NCBI RefSeq assembly: GCF_056712565.1 | Contig: NZ_CM160072.1 | Strand: one strand, 5' to 3' | DNA: 64,000 nt | Part shown: positions 36,430-39,400 of the stretch, piece by piece | How the letters are laid out: every line of letters begins with the position of its first letter | How positions within the stretch are numbered: position 1 is the first letter of the stretch | Position numbers: made by a program

Positions 36430-39400
36430 TAACAAAAGCAATTTTTCCGGCTATCTGTATACAAAAACGCCGTAAAGTTTGAGCGAAGTCAATAAACTCT
36501 CTACCCATTCAGGGCAATATCTCTCTTGCAGGTGAATGCAACGTCAAGCGATGGGCGTTGCGCTCCATATTGTCTTACTTCCTTTTTTGAATTACTGCAT
36601 AGCACAATTGATTCGTACGACGCCGACTTTGATGAGTCGGCTTTTTTTTGCCTGTTATTTATCAGCGTCTACCCTTTAAGAGTCCACCCAATGACCGGAG
36701 GGAAATATGACGACACTTATTTATTTGCAAATTCCTGTCCCTGAACCGATTCCTGGCGATCCTGTTCCAGTACCCGATCCGATCCCTCGCCCGCAACCCA
36801 TGCCTGACCCACCACCCGATGAAGAACCGATTAAATTGTCGCATCGTGAGCGTAGATCTGCGAGGATACGCGCCTGCTGACTTTGCGTCGATGACCACGA
36901 GAATAGATTGTGACCGCTTTTTCTACCCTGAATGTTTTGCCTCCCGCCCAACTCACAAACCTTAATGAGTTGGGTTATTTAACCATGACGCCGGTGCAGG
37001 ACGCCGCGCTTCCGGCGATCCTTGCCGGAAAAGATGTTCGCGTGCAGGCGAAAACCGGCAGCGGCAAAACGGCGGCTTTTGGCCTCGGCTTGTTACAGCA
37101 AATTGATGCGTCGCTATTTCAAACCCAGGCTTTAGTGCTGTGTCCTACGCGTGAACTGGCGGATCAGGTGGCAGGTGAATTGCGTCGGCTGGCGCGTTTT
37201 CTGCCAAATACCAAAATTTTGACGTTGTGCGGTGGTCAACCGTTCGGTATGCAGCGTGATTCGTTGCAACATGCGCCGCATATTATCGTGGCAACGCCGG
37301 GCCGTTTGCTGGATCACCTGCAAAAAGGCACTGTATCACTGGATGCGTTGAATACGCTGGTGATGGATGAGGCCGACCGCATGCTGGATATGGGATTTAG
37401 CGACGCCATTGATGATGTCATCCGTTTTGCGCCAGCATCTCGGCAGACGCTTCTGTTTTCGGCAACCTGGCCGGAGGCCATCGCCGCAATCAGCGGAAGA
37501 GTGCAACGCGATCCTTTAGCGATTGAAATTGACTCAACAGATGCTCTGCCACCTATTGAACAACAATTTTATGAGACATCCAGCAAAGGCAAAATTCCTC
37601 TGTTGCAACGGTTATTAAGCTTGCATCAGCCATCCTCTTGCGTGGTGTTTTGCAATACCAAAAAAGATTGCCAGTCTGTCTGCGACGTGCTGAATGAAGT
37701 AGGGCAAAGTGCATTGTCGTTACACGGCGATCTGGAGCAACGCGATCGCGATCAGACCCTGGTACGTTTTGCTAACGGTAGCGCCCGTGTACTGGTCGCG
37801 ACTGATGTTGCTGCGCGTGGTCTGGATATAAAATCGCTTGAGCTGGTGGTGAACTTTGAGCTGGCGTGGGACCCTGAAGTTCATGTACATCGCATCGGTC
37901 GTACAGCTCGTGCAGGAAATAGCGGTCTGGCGATCAGTTTCTGTGCCCCGGAAGAAGCACAGCGGGCCAATATCATTTCTGACATGTTGCAGATAAAACT
38001 TAACTGGCAAACGCTGCCAGCGAATAGTTCCATTGTGCCGCTGGAAGCAGAAATGGCAACGTTGTGTATCGATGGCGGGAAAAAAGCCAAAATGCGCCCG
38101 GGTGATGTATTAGGTGCGCTGACAGGAGACATCGGGCTTGATGGCGCAGATATTGGCAAAATCGCCGTGCATCCGGCGCATGTTTATGTCGCGGTGCGTC
38201 AGGCTGTTGCTCATAAAGCATGGAAACAGCTACAGGGCGGGAAGATTAAAGGAAAAACGTGCCGGGTGCGGTTATTAAAATAATGAAATGTTGAATCGCA
38301 GGGTGCAAGAGTAAACATCTTCTTCGGGATTGCCGGATGCGACGCTGGCCGCGTCTTATCCGGCCTCCATAAGAGTAGCCCGATACGCTTGCGCATCGGG
38401 CGCTATCCTGGTTATTTCACTTCAACCACATTCAGCCGTAACTCATCCAACTGATTTTCATCTTCTTCAGGCTGCCAGCCCGACGGTTGTAGTGGGATCT
38501 CTTCGCGATCAAACGCCAGATCACCCCCGTTAACCACTTCAGAACCGTGAGTAATGCCTTTAAAATCGAACAGGTTGGTATCGCACAGATGTGACGGCAC
38601 CACATTCTGCATCGCGCTGAACATCGTCTCGATACGCCCCGGATAACGTTTATCCCAGTCACGCAACATGTCAGCAATCACCTGACGTTGCAGGTTAGGC
38701 TGTGAACCGCACAGGTTGCACGGAATAATCGGGAACGCTTTTGCATCGGCAAAGCGCTGAATATCTTTCTCGCGGCAGTAGGCCAGCGGACGAATCACGA
38801 TATGTTTGCCATCATCGCTCATCAGTTTCGGAGGCATACCTTTCATCTTGCCACCGTAGAACATATTTAAGAACAGCGTTTGCAGGATATCGTCACGATG
38901 GTGACCCAGCGCGATCTTCGTCGCCCCCAGTTCCGTTGCGGTGCGATAAAGGATACCGCGACGAAGACGAGAACACAGTGAGCAAGTGGTTTTGCCCTCC
39001 GGAATCTTCTCTTTCACGATACCGTAAGTGTTCTCTTCAACAATCTTGTACTCAACGCCCAGCGTTTCAAGATACTCGGGCAGAACGTGTTCCGGGAAGC
39101 CCGGTTGCTTTTGATCGAGGTTAACAGCCACCAGCGAAAAATTGATTGGCGCGCTTTGCTGCAAATTGCGCAGAATCTCCAGCATGGTATAGCTGTCTTT
39201 ACCCCCGGAGAGGCAAACCATGATGCGATCGCCTTCTTCAATCATATTGAAGTCAGCAATGGCTTCGCCCACGTTACGACGCAGACGTTTTTGTAATTTG
39301 TTCAGGTTGTATTGTTCTTTCTTTGTAATTTGTTGATTTTCTTGCATTATTTCAGTTCTCTGGTACTAAATGGGGCATATTGAGGGCAAACTTTGCAACT

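What the first reader, a model, noticed from the sequence alone, without database searches (positions are those of the whole stretch)
36479..36639. FnrS sRNA with class-II FNR site
This is a known element, recorded because the six-frame track assigns this region to a spurious 72-aa ORF (36526..36744). The FNR half-sites TTGAG-N4-GTCAA are centred ~42 bp upstream of the sRNA 5' end.
Basis: partly seen in the sequence, partly recalled or inferred. Interest (0 to 1): 0.2.

Follow-up and report, generated by a model that had tools for sequence, protein, structure and literature searches.

The report
FnrS small RNA, FNR-activated promoter

Summary
Confirmed, and already known. The window is the zntB–dbpA region of Escherichia coli, nearly identical to type strain ATCC 11775. 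Positions 36528..36649 (+) are base-for-base identical to the curated 122-nt fnrS gene (b4699) of K-12 MG1655. They match Rfam RF01796 over the full model at 134.8 bits (gathering score 60). The palindrome TTGAG-cgaa-GTCAA is at 36479..36492, centred at −42.5. That is the value published for the fnrS FNR ChIP-seq site and lies within the class II range (−41.5 ± 4). On motif count alone the site is at chance level (2 found, 1.54 expected). Its support is positional: in 110 Enterobacterales orthologues it sits at the same distance from +1, next to a conserved −10 element, with an unconserved spacer between. The three-hairpin structure holds across 89 distinct sequences (91% paired, against 31–40% in slid controls; 10 pairs with compensatory changes). 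The 72-aa TTG ORF (36526..36744) exists. It keeps a start codon in only 12 of 111 loci, has stops anywhere from codon 14 to 119, and matches no protein family, so it is spurious. One correction: the RNA ends at 36649, not 36639. Interest is low.

The parts
36479..36492 (+). FNR-binding palindrome TTGAG-cgaa-GTCAA. It matches 8 of 10 positions of the consensus TTGAT-N4-ATCAA and is centred at -42.5 (class II position, overlapping the -35 region).
   Evidence: Sequence. The same 14-bp frame at -49..-36 fits TTGA-N6-TCAA in 81 of 108 distinct orthologous promoters, with a further 2 shifted by one base. The remaining 25 are one-mismatch variants: CTGAT 16, TTGCG 8, TTGTT 1. Published FNR ChIP-seq peak with the site at -42.5 (PMC3688515).
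36515..36520 (+). -10 hexamer CAATAT (-13..-8). It is preceded by a conserved G at -14.
   Evidence: Columns -14, -13, -12 and -8 carry at least 1.5 bits across 108 distinct promoters. All 14 hexamer variants except the two Yersinia promoters offset by one base (GCATTA) keep A at position 2 and T at position 6. No consensus -35 is present: ATAAAC at -36..-31 matches 2 of 6, read. No sigma-70 consensus promoter was found by the scan. Both fit an activator-dependent promoter.
36528..36649 (+). fnrS gene: the 122-nt Hfq-dependent small regulatory RNA FnrS.
   Evidence: 100% identical to MG1655 b4699, NC_000913.3 1409129..1409250. Rfam RF01796 at 134.8 bits. Present at 95% identity or more in 5392 of 5426 complete E. 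coli genomes.
36528..36573 (+). 5' stem-loop (RNA positions 1-46) with the invariant loop AAGCGAUG.
   Evidence: Rfam consensus structure. Helices 1 and 2 are 100% and 91.6% paired in 89 sequences; pair 18-27 shows C-G to U-A changes in 3 sequences. The loop and parts of the stem were fixed by my search pattern, so their invariance is partly due to selection.
36574..36588 (+). Single-stranded C/U-rich linker (RNA positions 47-61, CUUACUUCCUUUUUU). This is the main target-pairing (seed) region.
   Evidence: Unpaired in the Rfam structure and in the thermodynamic fold, yet largely conserved: T48, T49, A50, T52, T53, T58 and T59 at 90% or more, and T60 invariant. The published loss-of-function mutants fnrS-I (U57A U58G U59A) and fnrS-II (C47A U48A U49G) fall here, and their base identities match the window with +1 at 36528.
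36589..36614 (+). Middle stem-loop (RNA positions 62-87).
   Evidence: Rfam structure. Helix 3 is 96.6% paired and helix 4 is 74.4% paired, with compensatory changes at three pairs. Also predicted by the MFE fold.
36622..36649 (+). Rho-independent terminator: 8-bp stem GCCGACUU/GAGUCGGC, loop UGAU, then U8. By the general model for such sRNAs it is also the probable 3' Hfq-binding module.
   Evidence: Terminator scan. Helix 5 is 90.5% paired, and 5 of its 8 pairs show double-sided compensatory changes, for example A-U to G-C in 38 sequences.
36526..36744 (+). 72-aa TTG ORF. This is not a gene; it is a chance open frame across fnrS that runs into ynaL out of frame.
   Evidence: Listed. A start codon is present at this position in only 12 of 111 loci. 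The first in-frame stop falls anywhere from codon 14 to 119 (median 36). RNA lengths range from 107 to 125 nt, not in multiples of 3. No Pfam or NCBIfam family matches. It is not annotated in three RefSeq records.
35449..36432 (+). zntB (zinc transporter), the upstream neighbour. It has no intrinsic terminator of its own before fnrS.
   Evidence: Annotation. No + strand terminator lies between 36432 and 36528. zntB is immediately upstream on the same strand in 88 of 94 informative orthologous loci.
36707..36880 (+). ynaL (57-aa proline-rich small protein), the downstream neighbour. It is the real small gene here.
   Evidence: Annotation. Pfam PF23677 YnaL, E = 2.1e-40.

Best explanation
The region is the fnrS locus of Escherichia coli. 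When oxygen is absent, the dimeric [4Fe-4S] form of the regulator FNR binds the palindrome at 36479..36492. FNR is encoded about 8 kb away in the same window. The palindrome overlaps the position of a missing -35 element (centre -42.5), so bound FNR recruits RNA polymerase as a class II activator. Together with the -10 hexamer CAATAT, this starts transcription at G36528. Transcription stops at the intrinsic terminator, giving a 122-nt RNA (36528..36649) with a 5' hairpin, a C/U-rich single-stranded linker, a middle hairpin and a terminator hairpin with a U tail. With Hfq, the RNA pairs with the 5' regions of mRNAs for functions not needed anaerobically (for example sodB, gpmA, cydDC and iscR). 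Pairing is mainly through the linker and, for some targets, through the 5' end. It blocks translation and lowers mRNA levels, which extends the FNR regulon to negative control. Steps shown here: identity, boundaries, promoter geometry, conservation of the site, the -10 element and the structure, and the non-coding nature of the overlapping ORF. Steps taken from the literature: FNR binding in vivo, anaerobic induction, Hfq dependence and the targets. Step inferred: the class II contact mechanism at this particular promoter.
For: Identity: Rfam RF01796 at 134.8 bits against a gathering score of 60, with the full model matched. The sequence matches the curated MG1655 fnrS exactly. It is present in 5392 of 5426 complete E. 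coli genomes. Promoter: the site is centred at -42.5, identical to the published FNR ChIP-seq site position and within the class II range. The half-sites and the GCAnnnT -10 element are the only conserved blocks in 108 distinct promoters from Escherichia to Yersinia, Photorhabdus, Erwinia and Arsenophonus, and they sit at a fixed distance from +1. No consensus sigma-70 promoter is present, as expected for an activator-dependent promoter. Structure: 91.2% of cells are paired, against 31-40% when partners are slid. Ten pairs show compensatory changes, and 0 of 500 shuffles reach the observed values. Divergent orthologues all score 80-123 bits on the Rfam model, and three chance hits outside the Enterobacterales score nothing. 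Mechanism: published mutant positions G4/G5, C47-U49 and U57-U59 match the window bases when +1 is 36528. [quoted passage not shown] Eleven operons are attributed to indirect FNR control through FnrS in PMC3688515. A 120-nt FnrS was detected downstream of zntB by RNA-seq in Yersinia pestis.
Against: Nothing contradicts it, but there are limits. The FNR motif alone is not statistically enriched in the window. The thermodynamic fold of the single sequence is only marginally better than shuffles (z = -1.67) and does not reproduce the short 1-4/43-46 helix. Most of the 5' hairpin never varies, so covariation support comes mainly from the terminator and the middle hairpin. My orthologue set was gathered with a pattern that fixed 17 bases of the 5' hairpin, which biases conservation there. 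No expression data for this strain were available. The two discovery papers could not be read.
Confidence: 0.97

Rival explanations
1. The region encodes a protein: either the 72-aa TTG ORF (36526..36744), or the 47-aa ATG ORF (36536..36679) inside the RNA, which would make FnrS a dual-function RNA.
For: Both ORFs exist. The ATG at RNA positions 9-11 is present in 109 of 111 loci.
Against: The ATG lies inside the conserved 5' hairpin stem, which accounts for its conservation. The frame after it closes after anywhere from 1 to 163 codons. The 72-aa frame keeps a start codon in 12 of 111 loci and stops after 14-119 codons. The RNA body varies in length by non-multiples of 3. No Pfam or NCBIfam family matches either product, whereas neighbouring YnaL scores E = 2.1e-40. 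Three RefSeq annotations call no CDS here. No Shine-Dalgarno sequence precedes either start (read).
Confidence: 0.01
2. The palindrome is a chance FNR/CRP-like match, and the RNA is made constitutively, under another regulator, or by processing of zntB read-through transcripts.
For: The motif count in the window is at chance level. zntB has no terminator of its own upstream of fnrS, so read-through transcripts probably enter fnrS. From memory, unverified here: the discovery paper also reports smaller contributions from ArcA and CRP.
Against: The palindrome keeps the same position relative to +1 in essentially all 108 distinct promoters, while the 20-bp spacer next to it is unconserved. The half-sites are TTGA-type (FNR) rather than GTGA-type (CRP). 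An FNR ChIP-seq peak with a site at -42.5 is published for this exact promoter, with direct activation reported by two independent studies.
Confidence: 0.02

Closest known systems
FnrS (fnrS, b4699; Rfam RF01796 'frnS') of E. coli K-12
   Same: Everything tested is the same. The 122-nt sequence is identical, and so are the FNR site and the -10 element. The zntB-fnrS-ynaL-dbpA context is the same.
   Different: Only three flanking substitutions separate it from MG1655 across 36400..36720: at -75 and -55 upstream, and at 36697 downstream. None touches a functional element. Downstream of ttcA this strain lacks the Rac prophage that K-12 carries.
Class II FNR-activated promoters (dmsA, narG, nirB, ydhY and others)
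   Same: A single FNR palindrome is centred near -41.5 and replaces the -35 element. ydhY shares the exact -42.5 spacing.
   Different: The product is a non-coding RNA rather than an operon of enzymes. Both half-sites deviate from the consensus at the innermost base: TTGAG/GTCAA against TTGAT/ATCAA.
Other regulon-extending Hfq sRNAs (RyhB under Fur, OxyS under OxyR)
   Same: One transcription factor drives one sRNA, which gives that factor an indirect repressive arm. Targets are shared with RyhB (sodB, the isc operon).
   Different: The signal is different (anaerobiosis), there is no sequence relationship, and the effect on iscR is opposite to that of OxyS.

Membership tests
FnrS sRNA (Rfam RF01796) | Score at or above the family's curated gathering threshold on the covariance model, over the full length | tested here: met
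   134.8 bits against 60, model positions 1-119 of 119, E = 4.4e-24
FnrS sRNA (Rfam RF01796) | Sequence identity to the experimentally defined E. coli K-12 fnrS gene | tested here: met
   122 of 122 identical to NC_000913.3 1409129..1409250
FnrS sRNA (Rfam RF01796) | Architecture of three hairpins plus a single-stranded linker, ending in an intrinsic terminator | tested here: met
   The Rfam structure is 91.2% paired across 89 orthologues, with 10 compensatory pairs and 0 of 500 shuffles reaching the observed values. A terminator is found at 36622..36649.
FnrS sRNA (Rfam RF01796) | Conserved genomic context downstream of zntB (ydaN) | tested here: met
   zntB ends 95 nt upstream in the window. 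zntB is upstream on the same strand in 88 of 94 informative loci.
FnrS sRNA (Rfam RF01796) | Anaerobic, FNR-dependent expression; Hfq binding; repression of target mRNAs by base pairing | not testable with these tools
   Literature only: PMC3688515, PMC11572966, PMC8595263. The sequence is identical to the one studied in those papers.
Class II FNR-dependent promoter | FNR palindrome (TTGAT-N4-ATCAA-like) centred at about -41.5 (+/- 4) from the transcription start | tested here: met
   TTGAGcgaaGTCAA is centred at -42.5 from +1 = 36528. The class II range is as defined in PMC3688515. The +1 position comes from the curated annotation and fits the published mutant numbering.
Class II FNR-dependent promoter | Weak or absent -35 hexamer with a recognisable -10 hexamer | tested here: met
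   No sigma-70 consensus promoter was found. The -10 hexamer is CAATAT, with A2 and T6 conserved. The -35 position reads ATAAAC, matching 2 of 6 (read).
Class II FNR-dependent promoter | FNR occupancy in vivo, and activation through FNR contacts with RNA polymerase | not testable with these tools
   Occupancy comes from a published ChIP-seq peak. The contact mechanism at this promoter is inferred by analogy with the dmsA and narG promoters.

The most novel reading that the evidence does not exclude
The tight and ancient zntB-fnrS linkage, together with the absence of a separate zntB terminator, could mean that the two are functionally coupled. The linkage is seen on the same strand in 88 of 94 informative Enterobacterales loci, whereas the downstream neighbour is not conserved. 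The fnrS terminator would then also end zntB transcripts. Read-through zntB mRNAs would carry an FnrS-containing 3' UTR, which could be processed to give FNR-independent FnrS or could modulate zntB mRNA stability. This was not tested. It rests only and on the Y. pestis context.
Probability: 0.1. Interest if true: 0.3.

Novelty: already known. Interest (0 to 1): 0.05.

Why it matters
It matters only for annotation. FnrS has been characterised since 2010, and nothing at this locus departs from the K-12 gene. There are two practical points. First, six-frame or ORF-based tracks put a false 72-aa protein over the sRNA. Second, the PGAP annotations inspected here (the type strain and a BW25113 derivative) leave fnrS unannotated, along with MicC and McaS in the same window. 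A reader who relies on those records would therefore see an 'empty' intergenic region or a hypothetical ORF. The cross-species promoter comparison made here is a tidy textbook illustration of a class II activator site: only the FNR half-sites and the -10 element are conserved, at fixed spacing, across the Enterobacterales. It adds no new biology.

Tried and rejected
1. Coding readings of the 72-aa and 47-aa ORFs were rejected on cross-species frame analysis and the absence of family matches.

2. Statistical enrichment of the FNR motif within the window cannot be used as evidence, because the count is at chance level. Positional conservation was used instead.

3. The sigma-70 promoter scan found nothing. 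I read this as consistent with an activator-dependent promoter, not as evidence against a promoter.

4. The single-sequence thermodynamic fold is only weakly better than shuffles (z = -1.67). Comparative pair counts were used instead.

5. Reading the two discovery papers (Durand & Storz 2010; Boysen et al. 2010) by PMC id and by DOI failed, because they are not held. Secondary open-access papers were used in their place.

6. About 9 of the 120 genome-scan hits were chance matches in unrelated phyla: they lacked the GCAG 5' end, the FNR site and the terminator. They were dropped, and three of them were confirmed negative with Rfam.

7. One orthologue (L032, Photorhabdus) was truncated by my T-run rule relative to the Rfam boundaries. 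This slightly lowers the pair counts for helix 5 and has no effect on the conclusions.

Full report
**What is in the sequence.** The stretch 36400..36720 lies between the stop codon of a 327-aa ORF (35449..36432, ZntB) and a 57-aa ORF (36707..36880, YnaL). A megablast of this stretch against 5,426 complete E. coli genomes finds it in 5,392 of them at 95% identity or more. It is 100% identical to type strain ATCC 11775. Over its whole length the 64-kb window is the reverse complement of NZ_CP033092.2 at about 2,565,754..2,629,753. The only differences are two SNPs and two single-base indels inside a repetitive autotransporter gene.

Rfam (cmscan, gathering thresholds) gives RF01796 'frnS' at 36528..36645 on the + strand. 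The score is 134.8 bits against a gathering score of 60, with E = 4.4e-24 and model positions 1-119 of 119 matched. The curated K-12 MG1655 record annotates ncRNA fnrS (b4699) at 1409129..1409250. That 122-nt sequence occurs exactly at window 36528..36649. Across 36400..36720 the window differs from MG1655 at three flanking positions only (36453, 36473 and 36697), and none lies in a functional element.

**The FNR site.** TTGAGCGAAGTCAA occupies 36479..36492. With +1 at 36528 its centre is at -42.5.

- On count alone the motif is not significant: TTGA-N6-TCAA occurs twice in the window against 1.54 expected.
- The other copy, at 28510..28523, lies just upstream of the fnr gene itself.
- Myers et al. 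2013 report an FNR ChIP-seq peak at fnrS with one site at -42.5. They define class II as -41.5 +/- 4 nt.
- The numbering is consistent with the literature. The published mutants G4C/G5U, C47A-U48A-U49G and U57A-U58G-U59A name exactly the bases found at those positions when 36528 is +1.

**Comparative evidence for the promoter.** I scanned the GTDB species-representative genomes with a pattern that leaves the 5' hairpin stem free (GTGA-N10-AAGCGATG-N10-TCCAT).

- The scan returned 120 loci. Of these, 110 have the GCAG 5' end and a terminator T-run at the expected distance.
- The 110 come from across the Enterobacterales: Escherichia, Citrobacter, Enterobacter, Serratia, Yersinia, Erwinia, Pantoea, Dickeya, Pectobacterium, Edwardsiella, Hafnia, Photorhabdus and Arsenophonus.
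- Nine of the remaining ten hits were chance matches in unrelated phyla. The tenth, L102, has the FnrS 5' end and the FNR site but no T-run within the stretch scanned, so it was left out.
- Eleven of the most divergent orthologues score 80.7-123.3 bits on the Rfam model, and three of the chance hits score nothing.
- In 108 distinct 62-nt upstream sequences, the conserved columns are essentially the two FNR half-sites (-49..-36) and G-C-A-n-n-n-T at -14..-8. The roughly 20 bp between them is unconserved.
- The strict pattern TTGA-N6-TCAA sits at -49 in 81 sequences and at -48 in 2. The other 25 are single-mismatch variants in the same frame: CTGAT in Erwinia and Pantoea, TTGCG, and TTGTT.
- No consensus sigma-70 promoter is detectable, and the -35 position reads ATAAAC.

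This is the anatomy of a class II activator-dependent promoter.

**The RNA.** I projected the Rfam consensus structure onto a MAFFT alignment of 89 distinct orthologous RNAs.

- 91.2% of cells form standard pairs, against 31-40% when the 3' partners are slid by 1-3 columns.
- Ten pairs show changes on both sides, and 0 of 500 shuffles reach the observed values.
- Compensatory changes are concentrated in the terminator stem (5 of 8 pairs) and the middle hairpin.
- The 5' hairpin is nearly invariant. This is partly because my pattern fixed 17 of its bases, although pair 18-27 switches from C-G to U-A in three sequences.
- The single-stranded linker (RNA positions 47-61, window 36574..36588) is conserved although unpaired. 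It contains the positions whose mutation abolishes regulation.
- The terminator is at 36622..36641, followed by eight T residues.
- The single-sequence MFE fold (-32.8 kcal/mol, z = -1.67) reproduces the three main hairpins but is not decisive on its own.

**The ORF.** The 72-aa TTG ORF at 36526..36744 exists.

- Across 111 loci a start codon is present at the equivalent position in only 12.
- The first in-frame stop falls anywhere from codon 14 to 119.
- RNA lengths range from 107 to 125 nt, not in steps of three.
- The internal 47-aa ATG ORF behaves the same way. Its ATG is conserved because it lies inside the hairpin stem.
- Neither product matches any Pfam or NCBIfam family, whereas the adjacent YnaL matches PF23677 at E = 2.1e-40.

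**How it works.** Some steps were shown here: identity, boundaries, promoter geometry, conservation and structure. The following come from the literature.

- FNR occupies the site in vivo and directly activates fnrS.
- FnrS is made on the shift to anaerobiosis. It is an Hfq-dependent sRNA that represses many mRNAs for functions unnecessary without oxygen.
- It pairs directly with the iscR 5' UTR, and Hfq enhances that pairing. The result is inhibited translation and lower mRNA levels.
- Eleven operons of the indirect FNR regulon are attributed to FnrS, including gpmA, cydDC and sodB.
- One positive target, rseA, has been proposed.

One step is inferred: that FNR at -42.5 activates through the usual class II contacts with RNA polymerase.

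**Context and loose ends.**

- PGAP annotations of the type strain and of a BW25113 derivative carry no fnrS feature. Only the curated MG1655 record does.
- zntB has no intrinsic terminator before fnrS. It is the upstream neighbour on the same strand in 88 of 94 informative loci. dbpA is downstream in only 34 of 76, and ynaL was found in only 13 loci.
- The same zntB-FnrS arrangement was seen by RNA-seq in Yersinia pestis.
- Whether zntB read-through contributes to FnrS, or FnrS sequences to zntB mRNA fate, is untested. It is the only mildly open question here.

Noticed in passing
window 27738-28490 (-) and 28510-28523: The fnr gene itself lies about 8 kb from fnrS. The only other TTGA-N6-TCAA palindrome in the window (TTGATATTTGTCAA) sits 20-33 nt upstream of the fnr start codon. 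It is probably the known FNR autoregulatory site.
   Followed up: partly
window 43607-43727 (+) and 29566-29661 (-): There are two further Rfam sRNA hits above gathering score: MicC (121.3 bits) and McaS/IsrA (112.8 bits). Like fnrS, neither is annotated in the PGAP record of the type strain.
   Followed up: no
window 39399-39757: The Rac prophage of K-12 is absent. Next to ttcA there are only a 231-nt integrase fragment and a DUF1627 fragment, and fnrS and MicC are therefore only 7 kb apart.
   Followed up: partly
window about 29360-33125 (record 2596630-2600391): Between ogt and smrA the K-12 abgABT operon (recalled from memory) is replaced by genes for an AraC-family regulator, a HlyD-family protein and a frameshifted DHA2 MFS efflux permease. 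A degraded LysR-family fragment is left beside McaS.
   Followed up: no
window 36433-36527 and orthologous loci L006-L125: zntB has no terminator of its own before fnrS. It is immediately upstream on the same strand in 88 of 94 informative Enterobacterales loci, whereas the downstream gene is not conserved. zntB transcripts may therefore terminate at the fnrS terminator.
   Followed up: partly
window 36707-36880 (+) and 35388-35435 (+): Two annotated tiny genes flank the locus. ynaL encodes a 57-aa proline-rich protein (Pfam PF23677) and was found downstream of fnrS in only 13 orthologous loci. ynaN is a 15-aa ORF just upstream of zntB and could be a leader peptide.
   Followed up: partly
window 16012, 47355 and about 51955-64000: The window differs from the type-strain assembly NZ_CP033092.2 by two SNPs and two single-base indels. 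The indels lie in or near the highly repetitive 8.3-kb autotransporter adhesin gene, so they could be assembly differences.
   Followed up: partly
E. coli genome collection: Six of the 5,402 matches to the fnrS region are on records labelled as plasmids, and 34 complete genomes have no match. Neither group was examined.
   Followed up: no
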